Of a stretch of DNA of 11,415 nucleotides, positions 340-11,415 are shown one piece after another (within the stretch, counting starts at the first letter, position 1; the number at the start of each line of letters is the position of its first letter). The notes below the pieces were generated by a model. The model saw only the letters and a list, made by a program, of their open reading frames with translations, was not told where the DNA came from and ran no database searches. Source of the stretch: Thermotogota bacterium (GTDB taxonomy: Bacteria; Thermotogota; Thermotogae; UBA12178). Location of the stretch: contig DPRG01000050.1 in the NCBI GenBank assembly GCA_003538775.1, positions 1 to 11,415 of the forward strand, in the 5' to 3' direction. Made by a program: the position numbers and the translations under genes.

Positions 340-1584
340 GTGAGTGAACTTCTCGAAAAAGCGCAACGTGTGAGGGAAGCGTGGGAGATCTTGAAAACGT
401 GCCGTGCGCAGGAGAAAAACGAGGCTATACTGAAAATTGCGGAAGCATTGGATGTCGAGAGAAAAGCGATACTGGAGGCAAATCAAAGAGATGTAGAAGC
501 TGCCAAGGAACGAGGCGTGAAAGCGTCGTTGATCGACCGACTCCTTCTAAATGAGAAACGAATCGACTCCATGATCGAATCCTGCGAAGTGGTCGTGAAG
601 TTGAAAGACCCTGTTGGAGAAATCATTGACTCCTGGGTGAGAGAAGACGGTCTGAGGATCAGCAGGGTCAGAGTACCTATCGGTCCCATAGGCGTTGTTT
701 ACGAATCCAGGCCCAACGTCACAGTAGAAACCAGTGTCTTGGCCATAAAAAGCGGAAACTCCATACTGCTCAGGGGAGGTTCAGACGCTATAAACTCCAA
801 CAAAGCCATCGTTTCTGCCATGAAAAAAGCCTTGAAGGAATCGAGGATACCAGAAAGCAGTGTGGAGTTCATAGAAAGCACCGACAGGGCTCTGGTTGGA
901 GAGATGATAAAGCTTGAGGGTTATCTCTCTTTGATCGTTCCTCGGGGAGGCTACCAATTGATAAACTACGTCCGCAAAAATGCGACCGTTCCAGTGTTGG
1001 AAACGGGTGTGGGGAACTGTCACATATACGTGGACGAAAGCGCTGATTTGGAGAAGGCGATACCGGTGATCGTCAACGCCAAGGTCCAAAGGCCTGGCAC
1101 CTGCAACGCTGCCGAAAAGCTTCTGGTGCATGAGAAAATAGCCAACATTTTTCTGCCCAGAGTTGTGAAAGCACTACAAGAGCACGGAGTGGAAGTGAGA
1201 GGCTGTGAAAAAACTCAAAAGGTAGTGAATGTCAAACCCGCTACCGCCATCGATTGGGAAACGGAGTATCTGGACCTCATCATCGCGGTGAAAGTGGTGC
1301 GCGACGTGAACGAAGCCATAGAGCATGTGAAACGCTATTCCACTGGACATTCGGAGGCTATCATTACAGAGAACTACTCCAACGCACGCAAATTCGTCGA
1401 CTCTGTGGATGCCGCAGCGGTGTACGTCAACGCCTCCACACGCTTCACAGATGGTGGCCAGTTCGGGTTCGGCGCAGAGATAGGCATCAGTACGCAGAGA
1501 CTTCACGCCAGGGGACCTGTAGGATTGAGGGAGCTCACCACTTATAAGTACGTGGTTCTGGGCGACTACCATGTGAGGGGATGA
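340..1584 (+). CDS. proA: Gamma-glutamyl phosphate reductase (glutamate-5-semialdehyde dehydrogenase)
   Basis: 414-aa ORF with a GTG start 7 nt after a GAGGAGGG RBS. The translation matches the ProA family throughout (VPIGPIGVVYESRPNVT, catalytic Cys in RPGTCNAAEKLLVHE, YSTGHSEAIITEN). From memory it is very similar to T. maritima ProA. Confidence 0.95.
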   Translation: MSELLEKAQRVREAWEILKTCRAQEKNEAILKIAEALDVERKAILEANQRDVEAAKERGVKASLIDRLLLNEKRIDSMIESCEVVVKLKDPVGEIIDSWVREDGLRISRVRVPIGPIGVVYESRPNVTVETSVLAIKSGNSILLRGGSDAINSNKAIVSAMKKALKESRIPESSVEFIESTDRALVGEMIKLEGYLSLIVPRGGYQLINYVRKNATVPVLETGVGNCHIYVDESADLEKAIPVIVNAKVQRPGTCNAAEKLLVHEKIANIFLPRVVKALQEHGVEVRGCEKTQKVVNVKPATAIDWETEYLDLIIAVKVVRDVNEAIEHVKRYSTGHSEAIITENYSNARKFVDSVDAAAVYVNASTRFTDGGQFGFGAEIGISTQRLHARGPVGLRELTTYKYVVLGDYHVRG

Positions 1585-1585
1585 G

Positions 1586-2653
1586 ATGGGTAAGATCGTC
1601 GTAAAAGTCGGTAGCAACCTGTTAGTAGATGAACACCACAGCCTCAACAAAACCTACATAGCGGAACTCTGCCGGGAAGTGGCAAAACTCATATGGGAGG
1701 GTCACAAGGTTGCCATCATCACTTCAGGTGCTCGAGCAGCTGGATACGGGTATCTGAAATCAAAACTCAAAAGTCCAGATCTCTATATGAAGCAAGCTCT
1801 CTGCTCGGTGGGCCAAGTTCAGCTGATGAAGGTCTACGAAAACGCCTTCGATTTTTACGGTATAAAGATCGCACAGATACTTTTGACCAGGGATACCTTC
1901 ACCAACAGGAAAAGGTATTTGAACCTTCGCAACACCTTGATAGGCCTTTCTGAAATCGGCGCTTTGCCAGTCGTGAACGAGAACGACGCCGTGGCCGTGG
2001 AAGAGATCACTCTTGGCGACAACGATATGTTGGCAGCGATGTTTGCCATTGCGTGGAACGCAGATTATCTCGTTTTGCTCTCCACAGTGGAAGGTGTCTT
2101 AAACGATCGAGGAGAAGTGATTGAGGTCTATTCCGAAAATGTGAAACTTAAGAAATTGGGAAAGAGCTCCTGGGGAACGGGAGGTATTCGAACCAAGATC
2201 GAAGCAGCTACAAAAGCATCCACTGCTGGTGTGAGATCGTGCATCTGCAACGGAGAGAGAGTCGAAAACATCTCTCGTTTTGTTGGCGGTGAAACCGTCG
2301 GTACGGTATTCGAACCCCGAATTGACCATCTCCGAGCGAAGAAAGCATGGATAGGCCTTCTATCAGAACCTTCGGGCAGGATCTGGGTAAACGCTGGAGC
2401 TGAAGAAGCTCTCAAAGATGGGAAAAATCTTTTACCAGTAGGGGTCACAAAGGTAGAAGGAGAGTTCGATGCAGGAGATGTCGTAGAAATATTGGGCGAG
2501 AGTGGAAAGATCGTCGGCAGGGGGATAGTGAATTTCTCATCCGATGAGATGGAAAAGATCAAGGGGGTCAAGACTAATCGCTTGAAGCAGATCTTGGGCT
2601 ATGATGCCAGCAAGACCGTGATACACATAGACAACATGTGGGTGATTGGCTGA
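1586..2653 (+). CDS. proB: Glutamate 5-kinase with C-terminal PUA domain
   Basis: 355-aa ORF starting 1 nt after the proA stop (TGAgATG). It has the N-terminal VVKVGSNLL kinase motif and a C-terminal PUA-like segment (GRIWVNAGAEEAL...GDVVEI). Confidence 0.95.
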   Translation: MGKIVVKVGSNLLVDEHHSLNKTYIAELCREVAKLIWEGHKVAIITSGARAAGYGYLKSKLKSPDLYMKQALCSVGQVQLMKVYENAFDFYGIKIAQILLTRDTFTNRKRYLNLRNTLIGLSEIGALPVVNENDAVAVEEITLGDNDMLAAMFAIAWNADYLVLLSTVEGVLNDRGEVIEVYSENVKLKKLGKSSWGTGGIRTKIEAATKASTAGVRSCICNGERVENISRFVGGETVGTVFEPRIDHLRAKKAWIGLLSEPSGRIWVNAGAEEALKDGKNLLPVGVTKVEGEFDAGDVVEILGESGKIVGRGIVNFSSDEMEKIKGVKTNRLKQILGYDASKTVIHIDNMWVIG

Positions 2654-2663
2654 ACGTTAGAAA

Positions 2664-2689
2664 AACGGGTGGTTTTTGCCACCCGTTTT
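2664..2689. terminator. Bidirectional rho-independent terminator (stem 2664-2672 AACGGGTGG / 2679-2687 CCACCCGTT, loop TTTTTG)
   Basis: A perfect 9-bp GC-rich stem with an A-run on the 5' side and a T-run on the 3' side. It lies immediately after the proB stop and abuts the stop codon (2689-2691) of the convergent minus-strand small gene. Confidence 0.7.
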
Positions 2690-2883
2690 CAGTTGTTGCA
2701 CTGTATGAAATAACTTATCGACCTGTTCCATGTCGCCTCTTGATCCTTTGTGAAATAACAAGCGGGAAGTTCGCCATGAGATCTGTGGTATGCAATACAC
2801 TCGCAGCAAATACCCTTCCTCGGACATGAGGGATACGAACAGTTACATCTTTCCAGGTTTCTTTCTTGGTTTACGCAGTTCAC
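2689..2883 (-). CDS. Small Cys-rich protein (64 aa; CxC-x5-CP-x5-CCxC...H...H...C; zinc-ribbon-like / 'cysteine-rich small domain'-like)
   Basis: GTG start at 2883 preceded by a GGAGGTGA RBS 7 nt upstream. Eight Cys and two His in 64 aa. It ends at the bidirectional terminator and is co-oriented with the upstream VIT1 gene. Confidence 0.55.
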
Positions 2884-2974
2884 ACTCTCACCTCCATTTG
2901 CGTTTATTATTGCACATCCAGAACAGTACCGAAGCAGTCTTTGATAACCTAACGATCAGGAATGTATGATGAAA

Positions 2975-3808
2975 TCATATCTCTATGTGGAAAAACCGCT
3001 TCACGAAAAGTCCTATGAAGAACGAAGCTGCGGCAACACCCATGCTTATGATGAACATCTCCAAGAAGTTCTTCTTGAATTCTTGATTTTTGACGACCGA
3101 TACGAAGAAAGTAAACACGGATATGACGAGAACGGCGTTTATCGCCGTCACAGTCAGTGCAACGAAGGGATTGGCAAAGATCAGGTAAGGGAAGGTCAAG
3201 ATTAGAACGGTGAAGATGTAAGCGATACCCGTATAAAGCGCAGATTTTAAGGGGTTCTTCTCGTTGCTCTCCGATTTCCTCGCCAAGTAATCCGATGCGG
3301 CCATCGATAAAGCTGCGGCTATACCGGTGATAATACCTGACAGAGCAACAATTGGAGTTTTCTGAATGGCAAGGGTTAGCCCAGCAAGAGCTCCTGTCAG
3401 CTCGACAAGCGCATCGTTCAATCCAAGAACCATTGAGCCTATATACTCGAGTCTTTCCTCGTTTAACAATCCGAGTAGCGTTTTTTCGTGCTCTTTCTCA
3501 TCTTCCATGATCTCTTTCAACAGCTCGTCATTTGATATTCCGTAAGCCATTTGAGCTCTATCTTCGTTTCTTTCCATGAGCTTCAAAGAGAAAGTTATTC
3601 CCAACAGTTTGGCAAGGACGAGATAGAAATATACCTTCAGCCCACTCGGCTTAACCTCTCTCCCAGTTTTATTTTTGAGCCTGTGATAATGGTCCAATTC
3701 GTCCGATGCTATCTTTCGAAGAATCTCCGAGTTGTTTGGATCCATCTTAGCAAGCTTGGTGTAAACAACATATTCTGTTATCTCGTTCTTTTGGAATTTG
3801 AGTAGCAT
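2975..3808 (-). CDS. VIT1/CCC1-family Fe/Mn transporter with N-terminal ferritin-like (rubrerythrin-like) domain
   Basis: 277-aa ORF with ATG at 3808 and an AAGGAGGT RBS 6 nt upstream. The N-terminal ~150 aa has di-iron-type ExxH signatures (SDELDHYHRL, EDEKEHEKTL). The C-terminal half is hydrophobic with about four TM segments, as in the CCC1/VIT1 family. Confidence 0.85.
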   Translation of the reverse strand: MLLKFQKNEITEYVVYTKLAKMDPNNSEILRKIASDELDHYHRLKNKTGREVKPSGLKVYFYLVLAKLLGITFSLKLMERNEDRAQMAYGISNDELLKEIMEDEKEHEKTLLGLLNEERLEYIGSMVLGLNDALVELTGALAGLTLAIQKTPIVALSGIITGIAAALSMAASDYLARKSESNEKNPLKSALYTGIAYIFTVLILTFPYLIFANPFVALTVTAINAVLVISVFTFFVSVVKNQEFKKNFLEMFIISMGVAAASFFIGLFVKRFFHIEI

Positions 3809-3898
3809 CGAGAAACCTCCTTGGAAGGGTTACCGTATTATACCAGTGTAGTGTTATAATTATTCTGAATCAAAAAATCGTTCTGGAGGTGCTATTAA
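3809..3898. promoter_or_regulatory. Divergent promoter region between VIT1-like gene (-) and EncFtn gene (+)
   Basis: Plus-strand extended -10 TGTTATAAT (3852-3860). Minus-strand TATAAT (complement of 3837-3842). RBSs are present for both flanking genes. An AT-rich palindrome ATAATTAT (3857-3864) overlaps the + strand -10. Confidence 0.4.
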
Positions 3899-4240
3899 AT
3901 GCCAGAGTTTGTCAATCCGTTCAGTGGGAAGGTTCCTGAAAGGAAACTCACTCTTTCTGAATTGATCAGGGCCATAAGGCTCAACATCGCGGCAGAGCAT
4001 GAAGCGGTTCATCTCTACATGGCACATGCAGAAGCGACGGATCATCCGCTGGCTAAGAAGGTACTCATCGACATTGCGAACGAGGAGAGGGTCCATATCG
4101 GTGAATTCACGAAGCTTCTGGAAATACTGACTAAAGACGAGGCCAAGTACATGGCCGAAGGAGCAAAAGAAGTGGAGGAGATGATGGAGTCTGAATCGGG
4201 TGAAGAACCGACGATTGGTTCGATGAAAGAAGGTGAGTGA
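3899..4240 (+). CDS. Encapsulin-associated ferritin-like protein (EncFtn/Flp) cargo with C-terminal targeting peptide
   Basis: 113-aa ORF with a GGAGGTG RBS 7 nt upstream. It carries the EncFtn-type metal-binding motifs (AAEHEAVHLY, NEERVHIGEF). The acidic linker ends in TIGSMKEGE, which resembles GSL-type encapsulin cargo-loading peptides. The stop codon overlaps the start of the encapsulin fragment. Confidence 0.8.
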   Translation: MPEFVNPFSGKVPERKLTLSELIRAIRLNIAAEHEAVHLYMAHAEATDHPLAKKVLIDIANEERVHIGEFTKLLEILTKDEAKYMAEGAKEVEEMMESESGEEPTIGSMKEGE

Positions 4241-4497
4241 TGATGCCGAACAAATTTTTAATGCGTGAGGGCGCACCCTTCAGTCAGGAATTCTGGCAAC
4301 TGCTCGATGAAACTGTGATGAACGTTGCCAGAGCCCAGCTCACGGGGAGGAAGATCGTTTCAGTTAAAGGTCCCTTTGGCCTCGGTTTAAAACACATCTC
4401 TCTTGGGGAATACGACAGTGGAAGAGTGATGTCCGATCACGCTGGTGACAAGGAGAAGACCTTGTACTCATACCCCGATATTTCTATTTCTAGCTGA
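4237..4497 (+). pseudogene. 5' remnant of a family-1 (HK97-fold) encapsulin shell gene, truncated
   Basis: The first ~60 codons (about 4240-4420) align with the N-terminus of T. maritima encapsulin as I recall it (FLxRxxAPxxxxxWQxxD...QLxGRKxVxVxGPxG......LGE). After that the frame reads into the antisense strand of the convergent GH13 gene and stops at 4495-4497. No room is left for the ~200 further codons an encapsulin needs. Confidence 0.6.
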
Positions 4498-5840
4498 GCT
4501 TCATTCTCATCTATGATAAACGGCTTTGCGTTGCCAACAAGGTCCACGGCTTTCCTATACTTGGGGTTCAGTTTCTCAATGTCGATCCTTGCGATGTCCC
4601 CTTTATCCGAGTTGTTGAGCACTATCATGATCGCCTGGTCTTCCGACTCTCTTATGTAGCAATAAACGCCGTTGTGGGAGTACAAACTCTGGAATCTTCC
4701 CTTTCTCAACGCAGGATGCCTCTTTCTCAGTCTAATCATAATCTTGTAAAGCTGCAGGAGTTCTCTATTTTGGCGCTTCTCATCCCATATGAAAGGTCTT
4801 CGACAATCTGGGTCTCCATCACCCTCCATTCCGATTTCATCACCATAATAGATAACAGGAGCACCGACATATGTCATCAAGAAAACTATCGCTAATTTCA
4901 TCCGCCTCACATCGCCTTTACAAAGCGAAAGAAACCGAGGTTTATCGTGACTTCCTAAAAGGTTGAACATGGCATAGTTCGCCCATTTGGGATAACTTCC
5001 TCGTAAAAAACGGATCCTACCGTCGAATTCCCGTGCATCGCACTCGCTTTTTGCGAAGAAATCGATTAAGCTTTCCCATAGCTTGTAATTCATAACCGCG
5101 TCTAAACAGTCCCCCTTGAACCACGATGAAGCTATTCCCATCACTTCTCCAACTACATAAGCATCGCTTTTTGTTTCTTTGGCGACCCGCCTTATGTCTT
5201 TCACGAAACTCGGTTCTAAGTACTCGGTGGTGTCGAGTCGCCACCCATCGATATCCGCTTCTTCTATCCAATATCTGACAACTCTCAGCAAATACTTGCG
5301 CGTTTCGGGATTATTCGTGTTGAATTCGGGCATGTTGGGGATCCCACCCCAACACATGTAATTGGGTTCAGGTTCTCTCACAATGGGGAAATCTTCGATC
5401 ACGAACCAGTCCCGGTATTTGGAGCGTTCACCCTTTTCCAATACGTCCTGGAAAGCGAAAAAGCGCTCGCCGCAATGATTGAACACGCCATCCAGTATTA
5501 TCTTCATGCCGCGTTTGTGAAGTTCCTTCACTAACTCTTTCAACACTTCCTTGCTACCGAATTGGGGATCTATTTCGAAGTAGTCTTCCGTATCGTACTT
5601 GTGGTTAGAGGGTGCTTTGAATATGGGATTTAGATAAAGCGCATTCACGCCCAGTTCTTCCAGATAATCCAACTTCTCCATGATCCCCACGAGATCGCCA
5701 CCGAAAAAATTGTGAGCCGTAGGTTTGTCACCCCATTCGGCAACATCGGCTGGGTCGTTGTTTCTATCACCGTTGTAGAAACGATCAGGAAAGATCTGAT
5801 AGAATATCGCATCTTTAACCCAATCTGGTGGTTTCATCAT
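4437..5840 (-). CDS. GH13 alpha-amylase-family hydrolase (cyclomaltodextrinase/neopullulanase-like, no signal peptide)
   Basis: All four GH13 conserved regions are present (ILDGVFNHCG, DGWRLDTTEYL, VVGEVMG, NLLGSHDKPR). The preferred start is ATG at 5840, which has a GGAGGTGGAG RBS upstream and forms an ATGA overlap with the malG-like stop. The 504-aa track ORF starting at 5951 is an upstream in-frame extension. Confidence 0.9.
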   Translation of the reverse strand: MMKPPDWVKDAIFYQIFPDRFYNGDRNNDPADVAEWGDKPTAHNFFGGDLVGIMEKLDYLEELGVNALYLNPIFKAPSNHKYDTEDYFEIDPQFGSKEVLKELVKELHKRGMKIILDGVFNHCGERFFAFQDVLEKGERSKYRDWFVIEDFPIVREPEPNYMCWGGIPNMPEFNTNNPETRKYLLRVVRYWIEEADIDGWRLDTTEYLEPSFVKDIRRVAKETKSDAYVVGEVMGIASSWFKGDCLDAVMNYKLWESLIDFFAKSECDAREFDGRIRFLRGSYPKWANYAMFNLLGSHDKPRFLSLCKGDVRRMKLAIVFLMTYVGAPVIYYGDEIGMEGDGDPDCRRPFIWDEKRQNRELLQLYKIMIRLRKRHPALRKGRFQSLYSHNGVYCYIRESEDQAIMIVLNNSDKGDIARIDIEKLNPKYRKAVDLVGNAKPFIIDENEAQLEIEISGYEYKVFSLSPA

Positions 5841-6748
5841 CCTTTCACTCCACCTCCAGTCAAACCAGAAATGATTTGATCTTGCAAGCTGAAGAAGATC
5901 ACGAGCACGGGTAACGAACCCAAAATCGCGGCAGCGGCAAACGTTCCCCAATGACGAGCATAATCCGTAGTAATAAAGAAATTCAGTCCTACCGCAAGGG
6001 TGTACTTTTTCGTACCTGTCAAGATAACGCTCGCAAGAAGGTACTCAGAATAATTTCCTATAAACGTGAGGATGAATATCACAGTCAGTATGGGGCGAGC
6101 CAAGGGTAAGATGATCTTCACAAACGCTTGGAAGCGCGTAGCTCCATCTATCAGAGCTGCTTCTTCAAGATCGTGGGGTATGGTGTCGAAATAGCCTTTC
6201 ATCAGCCACGTGTTAAAACCGAGGGCGCTACCAAGGTATACGAGTATCAACCCGGCGTGTGTGTTCAAACCCATGAAGGGAACGTATTTCCCGATCCAAA
6301 GGAGTAGGAGATAAAGTGCGACGAATGCCAGCATGACTGGAAACATTTGAACCAAAAGTAATGTCAAAAGCAAGGTTCTTCTCCCTCGGAAATGGAAACG
6401 AGAGAACGCGTAAGATGCCAAGGCGCATAAGAAAACTGCTATCGAAGAAGCGATTGCAGAAACCTTAAGACTGTTCCACAACCACAACATGAACGGGTAG
6501 CGATCATCGGTGAAAAGTACTTTGTAGTGTTCGAGTGTGGGATGCTTGGGAATCAGTTCTTGACCATACAATGTACCCCCTGGATTGATGGAAGCCGAAA
6601 AAATCCAAACGACAGGGAAGAACGCGAATGCGATTGCCGCAAATATGATCATATGCTGTATAACCTTTTTGAAAATCAGTGTTTTTTTCTTCAATTCCTT
6701 CCCTCCTACTCGCATGAGCTCGATAGATCCGCTTTTATAGAGACTCAC
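5837..6748 (-). CDS. malG: ABC sugar transporter permease, MalG-like
   Basis: Polytopic membrane protein with the EAA loop EEAALIDGATRFQAFVKIILPLARP. The start could be GTG at 6748 (overlapping the malF-like stop) or ATG at 6715. It ends in an ATGA overlap with the GH13 gene. Confidence 0.88.
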   Translation of the reverse strand: MSLYKSGSIELMRVGGKELKKKTLIFKKVIQHMIIFAAIAFAFFPVVWIFSASINPGGTLYGQELIPKHPTLEHYKVLFTDDRYPFMLWLWNSLKVSAIASSIAVFLCALASYAFSRFHFRGRRTLLLTLLLVQMFPVMLAFVALYLLLLWIGKYVPFMGLNTHAGLILVYLGSALGFNTWLMKGYFDTIPHDLEEAALIDGATRFQAFVKIILPLARPILTVIFILTFIGNYSEYLLASVILTGTKKYTLAVGLNFFITTDYARHWGTFAAAAILGSLPVLVIFFSLQDQIISGLTGGGVKG

Positions 6749-8267
6749 TCATCTCTTCCAACCGCTTGGTAAAACGGAAGTTTGCAGCACTTATCGAACC
6801 GATTATTAGAAATATGATGACAGAGATTGCCGCAGCGTAACCATATTGAGCTCCTGCACCACCAAATGCCAGCTTATAAGTGTAGGAAATCAGTATGTCC
6901 GTTGCACCTGCGGGGGTTTGTGATCCCGGAATAGGAGGTCCCCCACCTGTGAGCAGATATATTACCGTGAAGTTGTTGAAGTTGAACGCAAAACTTCCGA
7001 TCAAAAGGGGTGCTAAGGAGATCATCAACAGTGGAAGCGTAATGGAACGAAATCTTTGCCAACTACTTGCTCCGTCCACTCGCGCTGCTTCATAGAGTTC
7101 TGGTGAAATGCTTTGCAACGCTCCCAACGATATGAGCATCATGTAGGGAAAACCAAGCCATAAATTGACGATGAGCAAGGCAACCTTAGCCCAAAAAGGA
7201 TCTTGAAACCAGCTTATTCTTGTGGATAGGAGTTTTTGAAGGATGTCATTTATGACGCCAAAGTTCGTGTTGAAAAGCCCGCGCCAAATCAGGACAGAGA
7301 TATAACCTGGGATAACGTAAGGCACGATCAAGAGTGTTCGATACAGATACCTGAACCTCAGAGTGCTGTCGTTCAACAAGATCGCCAGTGTCAGTCCAAG
7401 AACAAATGTGGTGAAAACCGACAGTAGCGCCCACAAAAAGGTCCATGTGAAGACACGAAGGAAAGGGCCCGAAATTTGTGGGTTTCGAAGGATATCTATA
7501 AAGTTTTTGAAGCCGACATAGGCTCTGAAGCCAGGCGAAAGTTTCTCGCCGTCTGACGACACAAACGTTCCATTTACTGGTCTGTAAACCTTCCCGGTCT
7601 TGAGATTAATGAGTACATCGCTTTTCTCGTCGTAGCGGTACAGTGGTTTAAAAACTCGGAATTCATCGATGGAGTAAAACTTAACGATACCGTCGTTGTA
7701 CTTGAATGCCAGGTTTTGAACCTCGTTGAGATTTTGTATGATTTGTACTTTGCTCATCCTTTGATAACCATCAATCTCTACGATTTCACCATCTTGATAT
7801 ACGAATAATGGATCGTGCACATCTGCAAGTTTCAAATGATCACCTACTGATAAATAAGCTTTATTCGTTTTTCTGGAGACGAGCAGAACTCGCATATCTC
7901 CTTCCGCATTTTTGAAAATCAGGTACGAAAAACGTTCACCGTTTTCGGGCTGAAAATACTCATTCGTGAACTGGGAAATTACTTGAGACTTGGAGAGAAT
8001 GTTGCCTGTTCCGTAGTTCATAAAAGATATATTGATGTTGTATATGATCGGATAAACAACCATTAACCCAAATAACACCAATCCCGGTAGCAGATACCGC
8101 AAAGGATAGGCTTTCCTTAAAAGCAAGGCAGCGTTAAGTCCCACCAATCCAAAGATCAATACGAACAAAAGGCCCCAACCCTTTGCTTGATAAAGACCAA
8201 CGCAAGCCCATATACCTAAGGCGTCCACCGCACTTAAAACTATAATCTTCAAAAGGATAGCTATCAT
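6735..8267 (-). CDS. malF: ABC sugar transporter permease, MalF-like (large periplasmic P2 loop)
   Basis: 510 aa with an EAA motif (YEAARVDGASSWQRFRSITLPL). A ~200-aa hydrophilic insertion after TM3 is typical of the MalF subfamily. Confidence 0.88.
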   Translation of the reverse strand: MIAILLKIIVLSAVDALGIWACVGLYQAKGWGLLFVLIFGLVGLNAALLLRKAYPLRYLLPGLVLFGLMVVYPIIYNINISFMNYGTGNILSKSQVISQFTNEYFQPENGERFSYLIFKNAEGDMRVLLVSRKTNKAYLSVGDHLKLADVHDPLFVYQDGEIVEIDGYQRMSKVQIIQNLNEVQNLAFKYNDGIVKFYSIDEFRVFKPLYRYDEKSDVLINLKTGKVYRPVNGTFVSSDGEKLSPGFRAYVGFKNFIDILRNPQISGPFLRVFTWTFLWALLSVFTTFVLGLTLAILLNDSTLRFRYLYRTLLIVPYVIPGYISVLIWRGLFNTNFGVINDILQKLLSTRISWFQDPFWAKVALLIVNLWLGFPYMMLISLGALQSISPELYEAARVDGASSWQRFRSITLPLLMISLAPLLIGSFAFNFNNFTVIYLLTGGGPPIPGSQTPAGATDILISYTYKLAFGGAGAQYGYAAAISVIIFLIIGSISAANFRFTKRLEEMSESL

Positions 8268-8275
8268 GATTCAAG

Positions 8276-8308
8276 AAGTGATGACCCCGCGAGCCGGGGT
8301 CATCACTT
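8276..8308. promoter_or_regulatory. Intercistronic stem-loop between malE-like and malF-like genes (14-bp perfect stem AAGTGATGACCCCG / CGGGGTCATCACTT)
   Basis: The inverted repeat is read directly. It sits 27 nt after the malE-like stop and immediately before the malF-like start codon. Confidence 0.55.
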
Positions 8309-8334
8309 CCGTTTCACCCCTTTCTCGGCACTGC

Positions 8335-9537
8335 TCACTGGCACTTCAAGGTTTTCTTAATCGTCATTACCGCATTTTCAAGCGCTTCCTCTGGCGATTG
8401 CTTTTGACTGCAGAACAGGGTTATTGCATCTGCCCAAGCTGACCAGACGGCGCTCATCTCTGGAATCGCTGGCATCGGAATGCCAACGGCGATGTTTTCA
8501 GCAAATCCTTCGACAATCGGATCTTGTGCTACAACATCCAGAGCGGGCTTGTATGCAGGTACACGCGGATCCGCTTCATACAATGCAAGCATGGTATCCT
8601 TCGTCGCTACATAATCTTTCAAAAAGAAAGCAGCCAATGCCTTGTTCTTGCTGAACTTGCTCACCATGAATCCTTGAACGCCAACGAATGGCTTGGGAAC
8701 GTGCCCCTCCACGGTGGGAATTCTTGCAACTCCGACATCTATACCACTATTCCTCGCCCCTGCAACAGCCCAAGGACCTGTCAGTATCATACCAACCTTG
8801 CCTTCGTTGAAGAGGCTCGTCATCGTTTGATAGTCTATCCCTTCTGGAACTAATCCTTCTTTGAGCAGATCCAATAGGAGGTAGGCTCCTTTGATGGCTC
8901 CTTCGCTCGCCAAACCTATATCGCAGGGATTGAGTGTGCCGTCTGGGTTCTTTCCGAATATATACCCACCGTAAGCCGTAAAAAACGGGAAGCTGTGGTA
9001 AGGATCGGGTTGGGAAGCTTGCGTCAAGAATCCGTATTCCTTCTTTTCAGGATGTGTGAGTTTTCTGGCAATCTCTAAGAGTTCCTTCCAAGTTTTCGGA
9101 GGTGTTGGAACGAGTTTCCTGTTGTATATGAGCCCAATGGCTTCAGTAGCGTACGGCAACCCGTATATCTTGTTGCCGTAGGTGAACGCTTCTATGGCCG
9201 TTTTCACGAATTTGTCCTTGATCTCTTTCATGAAGTTCAGAGGCTCGATCAATCCATTGGCAACCAGTTGTCCCAGCCAGTCGTGAGCGCCTATTATGAT
9301 GTCCGGCCCTTCTCCAGCCGGTCCAGCAACGCTCAACTTATCTCTGATATCACCGAATGGCATTTCCTGGACTTCTACGGGCACACCGTACAATTCAGTA
9401 AATTGCTTACCCAAATCTTCAATGATCGGTTTTCTGAGCTCATCGGCCCAGATCAAGAGTTTCCCCACTTCCGATGCGAAGATAACCCCGCTCGCCACGA
9501 CCACCAAACCCAACAAGACGACCAAGAATCTCTTCAC
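8335..9537 (-). CDS. malE: Maltose/maltodextrin-type solute-binding protein (CUT1 family) with N-terminal signal peptide
   Basis: 400 aa with a GTG start at 9537 preceded by an AGGAGGTGA RBS. The N-terminus is hydrophobic (MKRFLVVLLGLVVVASGVIFA). Overall it resembles MalE-like SBPs (GKLLIWAD, GLPYATEAIGLIYN, motifs near the C-terminus). Confidence 0.88.
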   Translation of the reverse strand: MKRFLVVLLGLVVVASGVIFASEVGKLLIWADELRKPIIEDLGKQFTELYGVPVEVQEMPFGDIRDKLSVAGPAGEGPDIIIGAHDWLGQLVANGLIEPLNFMKEIKDKFVKTAIEAFTYGNKIYGLPYATEAIGLIYNRKLVPTPPKTWKELLEIARKLTHPEKKEYGFLTQASQPDPYHSFPFFTAYGGYIFGKNPDGTLNPCDIGLASEGAIKGAYLLLDLLKEGLVPEGIDYQTMTSLFNEGKVGMILTGPWAVAGARNSGIDVGVARIPTVEGHVPKPFVGVQGFMVSKFSKNKALAAFFLKDYVATKDTMLALYEADPRVPAYKPALDVVAQDPIVEGFAENIAVGIPMPAIPEMSAVWSAWADAITLFCSQKQSPEEALENAVMTIKKTLKCQ

Positions 9538-10962: not shown

Positions 10963-11415
10963 ATGAAGAAAAGAATCAATCCCAGAAGAATTATACTCAT
11001 TGTCAGGGACTTATTCAACCCTGTCCTTGGAAAACATGCTTTGAGGAACATGATCCTCTCCATGATAGCGATAGCTCTCAGTCCCAAGATGAGGGTAAAC
11101 GAAATATCTAGGCACTTGCCCACAAAAGTCAAAGGTGATAAGCACAAGCAAAAGAGATTACTGAGGTTTCTCGACAGAGGGATCCCCACCAGTGAGGTGA
11201 TGGAACTGTGGGCAAAGTATGTGCTGAACACACTGAAGCCAAGGGTCATCATCGTGGACGAGACAGACCTTCCGGGAGGATTCAAAGCGATAGTGGCTGC
11301 TGTTCCTTTCAGGAAGAGAGCGGTACCGATTTACTTCATGACATACAGCCATGAACAGATAGATGAGATGAAGTACCTCAGTTGGAACCAGATAGTGGAT
11401 ATGTTTGTAGATAAG
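10963..11415 (+). mobile_element. DDE transposase gene of an IS element (IS4/IS5-superfamily-like, family uncertain), 5' partial CDS running off the window
   Basis: Open frame of 151 codons from ATG at 10963 with no stop before the window end. It is absent from the ORF track because it has no stop in the window. The basic N-terminus (MKKRINPRRIILIVRDLFNPVLGKHALRN...) and the motif VIIVDETDL are consistent with the first catalytic Asp region of DDE transposases. The track's minus-strand ORFs here are antisense artefacts. Confidence 0.6.

What the first reader, a model, noticed from the sequence alone, without database searches (positions are those of the whole stretch)
2689..4240. Compact iron-handling island: Cys-rich mini-protein, ferritin-domain VIT1 transporter and EncFtn on divergent promoters
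Three genes that can bind or move Fe sit in one region. A ferritin-like domain is fused to a CCC1/VIT1 membrane transporter. An 8-Cys/2-His 64-aa protein is probably co-transcribed with it, since they are separated by a 91-bp gap and share the terminator. The EncFtn ferroxidase is transcribed divergently from a shared ~90-bp control region that has an AT-rich palindrome over the -10. The small Cys-rich protein is the least understood piece and might be a metal chaperone or redox partner.
Basis: partly seen in the sequence, partly recalled or inferred. Interest (0 to 1): 0.55.

Follow-up and report, generated by a model that had tools for sequence, protein, structure and literature searches.

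The report
Duplicated iron island missing its shell
This Thermotogota contig carries a second copy of a four-gene iron-handling cluster (caged ferroxidase, iron exporter, small cysteine-rich protein) whose protein-cage gene is reduced to a stub; every part belongs to a known family, and nothing outside this lineage links the small protein to iron.

Summary
The three genes are real and lie at the stated coordinates. The 64-aa ORF is a stand-alone member of Pfam DUF6485 (9 Cys; 8 Cys and His33 are conserved). The 277-aa protein is a full-length erythrin-VIT1 fusion. The 113-aa protein is an encapsulated-ferritin (EncFtn) cargo with an intact targeting peptide.

It is a 58-codon stub of the 261-aa encapsulin shell gene, cut off at the 3' end of an amylase gene. 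The stub appears in 23 independent contigs. Three independent MAGs also hold an intact paralogous island (shell<-EncFtn<->ErVIT1->DUF6485). The window is therefore most likely a shell-less duplicate whose EncFtn acts as a secondary cargo.

DUF6485 lies next to VIT1 only in this lineage. No VIT1 was found near it in 80 other genomes, no EncFtn locus out of 80 has DUF6485, and no domain fusions exist. In a sister genome the VIT1 gene is frameshifted while DUF6485 stays under purifying selection. A dedicated chaperone role is therefore unsupported.

The control region holds two back-to-back extended -10 promoters. The AT palindrome is at chance level and is not conserved.

Verdict: an ordinary locus made of known families, with a modestly interesting history of shell loss.

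The parts
2662..2689 (.). Bidirectional intrinsic terminator hairpin (11-bp perfect arms, 6-nt loop). It is shared by convergent proB (+) and the ErVIT1-DUF6485 transcript (-).
   Evidence: One search found the inverted repeat. One search gave -18.9 and -21 kcal/mol, z -4.3 on both strands. It is conserved in L081.
2689..2883 (-). DUF6485 mini-protein, 64 aa, GTG start. Family-conserved residues are C3, C13, C15, C20, C26, C27, C29, H33 and C42.
   Evidence: Pfam PF20095 scored 34.2 bits against a cut-off of 24. There are 99 homologues and the conservation comes. dN/dS is 0.09 against L081. The AF2 model has pLDDT 94.7.
2884..2974 (-). 91-nt spacer between ErVIT1 and DUF6485. It carries the SD GGAGGTG (2889-2895) and has no terminator.
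   Evidence: z +1.98, unstructured; SD. The equivalent spacer is 17 nt in the paralogue L084.
2975..3808 (-). Erythrin-VIT1 fusion (Er-VIT1), 277 aa. The N-terminal di-iron four-helix domain spans about residues 1-115, followed by a VIT1/CCC1 membrane domain.
   Evidence: Pfam VIT1 scored 60.5 bits. It matches Eucalyptus VIT1 6IU3 at 2.7e-5. It is full length compared with at least 7990 homologues.
3837..3845 (-). Extended -10 box TGGTATAAT of the ErVIT1-DUF6485 promoter (inferred).
   Evidence: one of only two matches in the window. The paralogue L084 conserves it as TGTTATAAT.
3852..3860 (+). Extended -10 box TGTTATAAT of the EncFtn promoter (inferred). It overlaps the non-conserved palindrome ATAATTAT (3856-3863) and a PerR-box-like 15-mer (3854-3868).
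   Evidence: for the box. L084 conserves it as TGCTATAAT. It lies within a 19-bp gap in the L081 alignment. The PerR-like match of 12/14 is not conserved.
3899..4240 (+). EncFtn (encapsulated ferritin / Flp cargo), 113 aa. It has the ferroxidase-centre residues and the C-terminal targeting peptide EEPTIGSMKEGE (4202-4237).
   Evidence: NCBIfam EncB_fam scored 7.5e-35. PDB relatives are EncC 7S8T at 6.7e-16 and P. furiosus 5N5E. It is 96% identical to the paralogue with dN/dS 0.013.
4243..4497 (+). Encapsulin shell pseudogene stub. The open frame is 84 codons, but only codons 1-58 (4243-4416) are homologous to the 261-aa family 1 shell. The tail overlaps the 3' end of the convergent amylase gene.
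   Evidence: Pfam Linocin_M18 matched profile positions 2-60 of 253, and NCBIfam encap_f1 matched 1-58 of 261. The same stub occurs in 23 contigs. L081 has an in-frame stop and a 1-nt deletion. dN/dS is about 0.74.
4437..5840 (-). GH13 alpha-amylase, first gene of the amylase-malGFE-LacI block that abuts the truncation point. It marks the boundary and is not part of the island.
   Evidence: Pfam Alpha-amylase scored 1e-81. The block is syntenic in L081 and L088-L093.

Best explanation
The window holds a paralogous, shell-less copy of a lineage-specific four-gene island: encapsulin shell <- EncFtn <-> Er-VIT1 -> DUF6485.

Shown:
- The shell gene was deleted beyond codon 58, at a junction with a maltodextrin-utilisation block.
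- The three other genes are intact and under purifying selection.

Inferred:
- An intact copy of the island lies elsewhere in the same genome.
- EncFtn made here is a decameric ferroxidase. It still carries its targeting peptide, so it is loaded as a secondary cargo into shells made from the intact paralogous locus, where Fe2+ is oxidised and mineralised.
- Er-VIT1 is a membrane iron (possibly manganese) exporter with a cytoplasmic di-iron domain, of the kind exemplified by MbfA. Storage and export are thus encoded side by side.
- The two units are driven by back-to-back extended -10 promoters whose -10 hexamers lie 12 bp apart. RNA polymerase occupancy, or one repressor bound there, would therefore affect both.
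- DUF6485 is co-transcribed with Er-VIT1. It is a general small cysteine-cluster (Zn or Fe-S) protein of anaerobes that was captured into this operon in this lineage. It is not a dedicated partner of the transporter.
For: Shell truncation: the stub aligns only to residues 1-58 of the 261-aa shells of L082 and L084. The same arrangement is seen in 23 contigs from independent samples. The syntenic sister contig L081 carries the stub with a stop and a frameshift.

Intact paralogue: L084/L085 encode a 261-aa shell, a 113-aa EncFtn, a 277-aa ErVIT1 and a 64-aa DUF6485. Three MAG accession series (HCZ, MDI35, MDK28; locus tags PWP37_98-101 and PWP37_1385-1386) each contain both loci. The two copies are closer to each other than to Pseudothermotoga for all three proteins.

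Targeting peptide: it is identical in both copies. Across 80 metagenomic EncFtn loci, a targeting peptide tracks with an adjacent shell (54 of 57 with a shell, against 3 of 14 without).

Precedent: secondary Flp cargos encoded away from the shell gene are documented (bioRxiv 10.1101/085266).

EncFtn<->ErVIT1 pairing: it also occurs in P. lettingae in a different genomic context and in L096, L099 and L103.

Storage-export logic: bfr and mbfA are reported as synthetically lethal in B. japonicum. This rests only on the title of a reference listed in PMC7714665; the paper itself was not read.

Promoters. Co-transcription.

DUF6485 independence: plus L081, where VIT1 is frameshifted but DUF6485 has dN/dS 0.09.
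Against: - That both loci sit in one genome rests on MAG binning, not on a closed chromosome. Two related co-occurring populations could have been binned together three times.
- No expression, metal-binding or packaging data exist.
- EncFtn conservation since shell loss is only weakly resolved. Most of the window-L084 divergence may predate the deletion.
- In the sister lineage L081 this copy is decaying: the EncFtn targeting peptide is lost to a stop, a 19-bp gap in the L081 alignment covers the EncFtn -10, and VIT1 is frameshifted. The window copy could be on the same path.
- The tight DUF6485-VIT1 spacing in both paralogues (17 and 91 nt) is compatible with a real functional link in this lineage.
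- NCBIfam's MbfA equivalog model does not match the Er-VIT1, so transport direction and substrate are extrapolated from the wider family.
Confidence: 0.55

Rival explanations
1. One reading: the three genes form one dedicated iron-handling module in which DUF6485 is a metal chaperone or redox partner that serves the Er-VIT1 transporter.
For: - DUF6485 follows Er-VIT1 with no terminator, at 91 nt in the window and 17 nt in the paralogue.
- Both paralogous copies kept the adjacency.
- Eight conserved Cys and one His suggest a metal cluster.
- The family is found in anaerobes.
Against: - None of 80 DUF6485 loci in other genomes has a VIT1, EncFtn or encapsulin within 6 kb.
- No neighbour is conserved.
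- None of 80 EncFtn loci has DUF6485.
- P. lettingae and Thermotoga Er-VIT1 genes lack it.
- Close Thermotogota relatives place it beside unrelated genes.
- There are no fusions.
- In L081 the VIT1 gene is broken while DUF6485 stays under purifying selection.
- The two paralogous adjacencies trace back to one duplication event, so they count once.
Confidence: 0.12
2. Shell-independent pair: after shell loss, EncFtn works as a free cytoplasmic ferroxidase or peroxide scavenger alongside Er-VIT1, with no encapsulation at all.
For: - Shell-less EncFtn-like genes recur. Thirteen of 80 loci have room downstream but no shell, and 10 of those lack a targeting peptide.
- L103 encodes superoxide reductase, then EncFtn without a targeting peptide, then Er-VIT1, directly in a row in a high-GC organism.
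- L110 keeps only an internal shell fragment.
- The EncFtn core (residues 1-70) has dN/dS 0.02 between the two shell-less genomes, window and L081.
Against: - The window EncFtn keeps a targeting peptide identical to its paralogue, which free EncFtn-like proteins usually lack.
- An intact shell gene appears in the same MAGs.
- EncFtn alone cannot hold mineralised iron in solution (PMC7762939; PMC8346489).
Confidence: 0.18
3. Decaying remnant: the whole duplicate is redundant and on its way to pseudogenisation. Its apparent integrity only reflects too little elapsed time.
For: - The orthologous locus L081 shows an EncFtn nonsense mutation before the targeting peptide, a 19-bp gap in the L081 alignment that covers the EncFtn -10, two frameshifts and a replaced 3' end in VIT1, and a stop plus a frameshift in the stub.
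- EncFtn residues 71-102 have dN/dS 0.82 and the stub has dN/dS about 0.74.
Against: - In the window lineage all three ORFs are intact and identical across many independent assemblies.
- Changes in the targeting-peptide codons relative to the paralogue are all synonymous in the window but non-synonymous in L081. This was read by eye from the sequences shown.
- Both promoter boxes and all SD sites are intact.
Confidence: 0.1
4. The two loci belong to two different co-binned Thermotogota populations, so the organism of the window has no encapsulin shell at all.
For: - All the evidence for one genome comes from metagenome bins.
- Both locus types occur in the same sample series, SRR238238xx.
- Synonymous sites between the copies are saturated, as would be expected for different species.
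Against: - Three separate MAG submissions contain both loci.
- The flanks are non-allelic: valS/mutS against amylase/mal on one side, and AI-2E/asparaginase against proBA on the other.
- The copies are each other's closest relatives for all three proteins.
Confidence: 0.15

Closest known systems
Family 1 encapsulin-Flp/EncFtn systems (Thermotoga maritima; Rhodospirillum rubrum; Pyrococcus furiosus fusion)
   Same: - The cargo gene is of the same family (NCBIfam EncB_fam; PDB relatives 7S8T, 5N5E and 2E0Z).
- It has a C-terminal TxGSx targeting peptide.
- The shell gene start lies 3 nt after the cargo stop codon.
- The intact paralogue and P. lettingae have the canonical cargo-shell operon.
   Different: Only the first 58 codons of the shell gene survive here. 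An Er-VIT1 gene is divergently coupled, an association the encapsulin surveys I read do not describe: 'transporter' occurs 0 times in PMC8346489, and no paper links encapsulin with VIT1 or MbfA beyond general reviews.
Secondary Flp cargos encoded away from the shell gene (Giessen & Silver survey, which counts 27 secondary Flp cargos). I recall that M. xanthus EncC and EncD are encoded away from encA, but I did not check that here.
   Same: A targeted EncFtn-type cargo with an intact targeting peptide is encoded at a locus without a functional shell gene, while a shell is encoded elsewhere.
   Different: Here the secondary status arose visibly, through duplication of the whole island followed by deletion of the shell gene, which leaves a datable stub. 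Packaging in trans is inferred, not shown.
MbfA, the membrane-bound ferritin / erythrin-VIT1 iron exporter of Bradyrhizobium japonicum and Agrobacterium tumefaciens
   Same: It has an N-terminal erythrin domain with Ex6Y/ExxH twice and a C-terminal VIT1 membrane domain (motif definition from PMC7714665).
   Different: - It does not reach NCBIfam's MbfA equivalog model; there was no hit at E<=0.1.
- It belongs to a shorter (277-293 aa) subfamily that is very abundant in anaerobes and archaea.
- It has a conserved hydrophobic stretch between erythrin helices 2 and 3.
- Regulation by Irr cannot apply.
- Its substrate and transport direction are untested.
Pfam PF20095 (DUF6485)
   Same: The match is above the gathering threshold, and the protein shares the family's C-x-C-x4-C-x5-CC-x-C-x3-H-x8-C signature.

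Membership tests
EncFtn / Flp cargo of family 1 encapsulins | Two-helix ferritin-like sequence with ferroxidase-centre Glu, ExxH and Tyr | tested here: met
   NCBIfam EncB_fam scored 119.5 bits against a cut-off of 90. The alignments to EncC 7S8T and P. furiosus 5N5E keep E33, Y40, E63 and H66.
EncFtn / Flp cargo of family 1 encapsulins | C-terminal cargo-loading peptide (TxGSL-type) | tested here: met
   The protein ends ...EEPTIGSMKEGE, identical to the paralogue that sits next to an intact shell. Of 57 shell-adjacent EncFtn, 54 have such a motif.
EncFtn / Flp cargo of family 1 encapsulins | Encoded directly upstream of a functional shell gene | tested here: not met
   The downstream gene is a 58-codon stub of a 261-aa shell. 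An intact shell is found only at the paralogous locus.
EncFtn / Flp cargo of family 1 encapsulins | Decameric ferroxidase packaged inside the shell | not testable with these tools
   This needs biochemistry or cryo-EM.
Family 1 encapsulin shell (HK97 fold, about 260 aa) | Full-length HK97-fold capsid protein | tested here: not met
   Only profile positions 1-60 of 253/261 are matched. The sister copy has a stop and a frameshift, and dN/dS is about 0.74. It is a pseudogene remnant.
Erythrin-VIT1 (MbfA-like) iron exporters | N-terminal four-helix di-iron domain with Ex6Y, ExxH, Ex6Y, ExxH | tested here: met
   E9x6Y16, E37xxH40, E82x6Y89 and E104xxH107 are present. Pfam Rubrerythrin scored 21.8 bits, just under the 22.8 cut-off.
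Erythrin-VIT1 (MbfA-like) iron exporters | C-terminal VIT1/CCC1 membrane domain | tested here: met
   Pfam VIT1 scored 60.5 bits against a cut-off of 28.1. The protein matches EgVIT1 6IU3 over TM1 and TM3-5.
Erythrin-VIT1 (MbfA-like) iron exporters | Equivalog of alpha-proteobacterial MbfA (NCBIfam NF045676, cut-off 450 bits) | tested here: not met
   The Er-VIT1 gave no hit to FeExpMbfA at E<=0.1. It has the same architecture but belongs to a different subfamily.
Erythrin-VIT1 (MbfA-like) iron exporters | Exports Fe2+ and protects against iron or peroxide stress | not testable with these tools
   This needs transport or complementation assays.
Pfam DUF6485 (PF20095) | Profile match above the gathering score and the conserved Cys/His signature | tested here: met
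   The match is 34.2 bits against a cut-off of 24. C13, C15, C27, C29, H33 and C42 are invariant, and C3, C20 and C26 are at least 90% conserved in 99 sequences.
   No VIT1 lies near any of 80 DUF6485 loci. No VIT1 is among the 148 immediate neighbours. No DUF6485 lies near any of 80 EncFtn loci. None of the 150 best of 564 cluster representatives, the only ones listed, is fused to another domain.
Fur/PerR-type operator in the divergent control region | Conserved 7-1-7 inverted repeat resembling TGATAATnATTATCA / TTATAATnATTATAA | tested here: inconclusive
   The window has TTATAATTATTCTGA, which matches 12 of 14 positions of the B. subtilis PerR consensus and is rare (0.2-0.8% of controls). 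It overlaps the -10 box, falls to 9 of 14 in the paralogue, and is absent in L081 and L096. The organism's own regulon motif is unknown.

The most novel reading that the evidence does not exclude
EncFtn and Er-VIT1 form a conserved functional pair, 'oxidise and store' against 'export', switched from one overlapping divergent promoter. The pair can work without any shell.

Recurrent shell loss would then mark a shell-independent role for EncFtn-like ferroxidases. The cases seen here are the window, L081, L110 and about 10 metagenomic loci without a targeting peptide, including a direct SOR-EncFtn-ErVIT1 row in an unrelated high-GC organism.

In this reading DUF6485 is a new metal-cluster accessory recruited to the exporter in this lineage.
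Probability: 0.1. Interest if true: 0.6.

Novelty: new member of a known kind. Interest (0 to 1): 0.3.

Why it matters
If the reading is right, the locus is a dated natural example of how a core encapsulin cargo becomes a 'secondary' cargo. The island duplicated, one shell gene was deleted, and the targeting peptide was kept where a shell survives elsewhere. In a sister lineage the peptide was lost.

The locus also documents a side-by-side arrangement of an iron-storage compartment and an erythrin-VIT1 exporter in the Pseudothermotoga group. The encapsulin surveys I could read do not mention this arrangement.

For DUF6485 the result is mainly negative but useful. Genome context gives no reason to call it an iron protein, so any functional work should start from its metal content rather than from this neighbourhood.

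Tried and rejected
- Conserved neighbourhood of DUF6485. Eighty genome loci were tested by tblastn, by neighbour clustering, and by a Pfam census of 148 flanking genes. Nothing recurs.
- Domain fusions of DUF6485. A profile search of 1.84 billion representatives found only 50-132 aa proteins plus one tandem repeat.
- Literature on DUF6485: none.
- Riboswitch or sRNA in the region: no Rfam match. No tRNAs.
- The AT palindrome as an operator was rejected. It is at chance level and not conserved.
- A Fur/PerR box by B. subtilis and E. coli consensus gave one rare but unconserved match, left as inconclusive.
- Mis-assembly as the cause of the truncated shell was rejected. There are 23 independent contigs plus a syntenic sister genome.
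- The generic sigma-70 scan found no promoter for either gene. The extended -10 search did.
- The idea that the Er-VIT1 is N-terminally truncated was rejected. It has the same length as its Pseudothermotoga orthologues, and all four motifs are present.
Full report
SOURCE AND LAYOUT. The window is an entire 11,415-bp contig of a Thermotogota metagenome-assembled genome (the 64-aa protein is named 'DHV12_03910 [Thermotogae bacterium]'). The gene order is as follows:
- proA, 340-1584(+)
- proB, 1586-2653(+)
- a hairpin terminator, 2662-2689
- the 64-aa ORF, 2689-2883(-)
- a 277-aa VIT1 protein, 2975-3808(-)
- a 113-aa EncFtn, 3899-4240(+)
- a short encapsulin-like ORF, 4243-4497(+)
- a convergent GH13 amylase, 4437-5840(-)
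- malG, malF, malE and a LacI regulator.

CHECK OF THE OBSERVATION. All three genes exist where stated.

The small ORF has a GTG start preceded by GGAGGTG. It has 9 Cys and 2 His, not 8 Cys, and it matches Pfam DUF6485 above threshold (34.2 bits against 24).

The 277-aa protein matches Pfam VIT1 (60.5 bits). It also carries the complete erythrin signature, E9x6Y, E37xxH, E82x6Y and E104xxH, as defined in PMC7714665. Its membrane half aligns to Eucalyptus VIT1 6IU3. It is full length relative to at least 7990 homologues of 277-293 aa.

The 113-aa protein passes NCBIfam EncB_fam (119.5 bits against 90). Its closest solved relatives are M. xanthus EncC and P. furiosus EncFtn.

The 91-nt gap is unstructured (z +1.98). 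The only terminator is the hairpin at 2662-2689, which is strong on both strands (z -4.3) and shared with proB.

The 90-bp divergent region is correct. Its 8-bp palindrome ATAATTAT is unremarkable, because 36% of shuffles contain one, and the paralogue has ATAATTTT instead.

The notable signal is two extended -10 boxes, TGGTATAAT at 3837-3845(-) and TGTTATAAT at 3852-3860(+). These are the only TGnTATAAT matches in the whole contig (0.17 expected). Both are conserved in the paralogous locus. Their -10 hexamers are 12 bp apart and back to back, so each promoter's upstream zone covers the other's -10. That geometry is what I infer to couple the two units.

The ORF after EncFtn matches only positions 1-60 of the encapsulin shell profiles. 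It aligns to residues 1-58 of the 261-aa shells of P. lettingae and of contig L084. Homology ends about 20 nt before the stop codon of the convergent amylase.

This is not a mis-assembly. The same stub-amylase junction is present in 23 contigs from an oil-facility metagenome, a JGI metagenome and several Logan assemblies. It is also present in a syntenic sister contig, L081 (QNAP01000082, 91.7% nucleotide identity).

In L081 the stub has an in-frame TAA and a 1-nt deletion. Its dN/dS against the window is about 0.74. The stub is therefore a pseudogene remnant.

A PARALOGOUS INTACT ISLAND. Contigs L084 and L085 encode a 261-aa encapsulin <- a 113-aa EncFtn <-> a 277-aa ErVIT1 -> a 64-aa DUF6485 with a 17-nt gap. 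Their flanks are different (valS/mutS on one side, AI-2E/asparaginase on the other).

Exact-sequence look-ups show that three separate MAG submissions each contain both the window-type proteins (HCZ06271-3; MDI3517471-2; MDK2865193-4; PWP37_1385/1386) and the L084-type proteins (HCZ07101-3; MDI3516125-8; MDK2863906-9; PWP37_98-101).

The two copies are each other's closest relatives:
- ErVIT1: 81% between copies, against 77% and 71% to P. lettingae.
- EncFtn: 96.5% between copies, against 91%.
- DUF6485: 83% between copies, against 73-80%.

Synonymous sites between the copies are saturated. The simplest reading is an old segmental duplication of a four-gene island followed by loss of one shell gene. 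Residual doubt comes from the reliance on binning, which I list as a rival.

STATE OF THE REMAINING GENES. Window against L084, EncFtn has dN/dS 0.013. Window against L081, residues 1-70 have 0.02 and residues 71-102 have 0.82. DUF6485 has 0.09, and the amylase and malE controls have 0.12-0.13.

The window EncFtn keeps EEPTIGSMKEGE, identical to the paralogue. In L081 a GAA->TAA change removes the peptide, and the codons after it have drifted.

L081 shows further decay. A 19-bp gap in its alignment to the window covers the EncFtn -10. Its Er-VIT1 is split into 67-aa and 154-aa pieces by a 1-nt insertion and a 10-nt deletion, and its 3' end is replaced. DUF6485 in L081 is nevertheless intact.

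HOW GENERAL ARE THE ASSOCIATIONS?

(a) DUF6485. It has 99 close homologues in Thermotogota, Spirochaetota, Cloacimonadota, Omnitrophota, Chlorobia, Desulfobacterota, Thermoplasmata and other anaerobes. The 80 sampled genome loci add further lineages, including Woesearchaeota. A profile search found 564 cluster representatives. The 150 best, which are the only ones listed, are all 50-132 aa, with no fusion apart from one tandem.

In 80 genome loci, no VIT1, EncFtn or encapsulin lies within 6 kb. The commonest neighbour cluster is a generic ABC ATPase, in 15 of 80. The 148 immediate neighbours fall into 122 Pfam families: MGMT 6, CobA 5, radical SAM 5, VIT1 0. A close Thermotogota relative, L001 (80% identity), has it between an MBL hydrolase and a 490-aa membrane protein that I read as Lnt-like, without a profile check. 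P. lettingae and Thermotoga Er-VIT1 genes have no DUF6485 next to them.

(b) EncFtn<->ErVIT1. The same divergent pair, with an intact shell, occurs in P. lettingae between purine and pyrimidine genes. The pair thus persists across three different contexts. Among 80 metagenomic EncFtn loci, an Er-VIT1 is adjacent in three different arrangements. L096 is divergent. L099 places it after the shell. L103 places it directly after an EncFtn that lacks a targeting peptide, preceded by a superoxide reductase-like ORF that I identified by eye. This is sporadic, but more than one would expect for one specific gene.

(c) Targeting peptide against shell. Of the 80 loci, 57 have an adjacent shell, and 54 of those have a targeting peptide. 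Fourteen have room downstream but no intact shell (13 with none, plus L110 with an internal fragment), and only 3 of these have a clear peptide. The window resembles those few exceptions, which fits the published category of secondary cargos.

DUF6485 ITSELF. The invariant signature is C13-x-C15-x4-C20-x5-C26-C27-x-C29-x3-H33-x8-C42 plus C3. That gives nine potential ligands, enough for two Zn sites, a multinuclear Zn cluster, or an Fe-S cluster plus extras.

I commit to 'small cytoplasmic metal-cluster protein of anaerobes, function independent of VIT1, co-transcribed here by lineage-specific capture'. I rate a dedicated VIT1 partnership at about 0.12.

REGULATION. No riboswitch or sRNA was found. 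The 15-mer TTATAATTATTCTGA over the EncFtn -10 matches the B. subtilis PerR consensus at 12 of 14 positions, which is rare in controls. It is not conserved in the paralogue, L081 or L096. P. lettingae has a different, longer spacer with a 14/19 Fur-box-like stretch. These consensus sequences are recalled from other phyla and are leads only.

COMPARISON WITH KNOWN SYSTEMS AND VERDICT. Every protein is a member of a described family. Secondary Flp cargos, and non-targeted components near encapsulin operons, are established concepts. EncFtn needs a shell to keep mineralised iron soluble. Erythrin-VIT1 exporters are known from MbfA, although this protein is not an MbfA equivalog by NCBIfam.

The additions here are the visible history (duplication, shell deletion, differential decay in a sister lineage) and the recurrent EncFtn-ErVIT1 adjacency. 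I did not find that adjacency described.

Interest is low to moderate.

Noticed in passing
window 4243-4497 (+): This is an encapsulin shell gene cut down to its first 58 codons and fused to unrelated sequence that overlaps the amylase 3' end.
   Followed up: yes
L081 5660-7400 (sister contig QNAP01000082): The orthologous locus is decaying. EncFtn has a stop before the targeting peptide, a 19-bp gap in the alignment to the window covers the EncFtn -10, and Er-VIT1 is split by a 1-nt insertion and a 10-nt deletion with a replaced 3' end. The stub has a stop and a frameshift. DUF6485 is intact.
   Followed up: yes
L095-L174 (80 metagenomic EncFtn loci): About 13 loci have at least 900 bp downstream but no shell gene, and 10 of them lack a targeting peptide. 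L110 keeps only an internal shell fragment after an EncFtn without a targeting peptide. Shell-less EncFtn-like genes therefore seem to be a recurrent class.
   Followed up: partly
L103 78-1599: A high-GC organism encodes a superoxide reductase-like ORF (judged by eye), an EncFtn without a targeting peptide, and a 306-aa Er-VIT1 directly in a row, followed by a nitroreductase-like ORF (also judged by eye).
   Followed up: partly
window 2975-3808 (-), residues 57-77 of Er-VIT1: A conserved hydrophobic stretch (LKVYFYLVLAKLLGITFSLKL, KD 1.62) sits between erythrin helices 2 and 3. It is also present in the L084 and P. lettingae proteins. It could be a membrane-inserted hairpin or a dimer interface.
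   Followed up: no
window 10963-11415 (+): An ORF of at least 151 aa runs off the contig end and has no Pfam match. The longest window-type contigs extend only about 270 bp further on this side. I suspect a repeat or mobile element, but did not test this.
   Followed up: no
window vs L081, 2689-4240 compared with 4437-9537: Synonymous divergence of EncFtn and DUF6485 (dS 0.43-0.53) is two to three times that of amylase and malE (0.16-0.21) on the same pair of contigs. This may reflect small samples, recombination, or exchange with the paralogous copy.
   Followed up: no
L082 5841-6000 (P. lettingae EncFtn/Er-VIT1 spacer): The 160-bp spacer is unrelated in sequence to the window's. It contains CATAATGATAATGAGTAAT, a 14/19 match to the E. 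coli Fur-box consensus.
   Followed up: partly
P0340 (128 aa, from the profile search): This protein has two tandem DUF6485 domains. It is the only multi-domain architecture among the 150 best cluster representatives listed.
   Followed up: no
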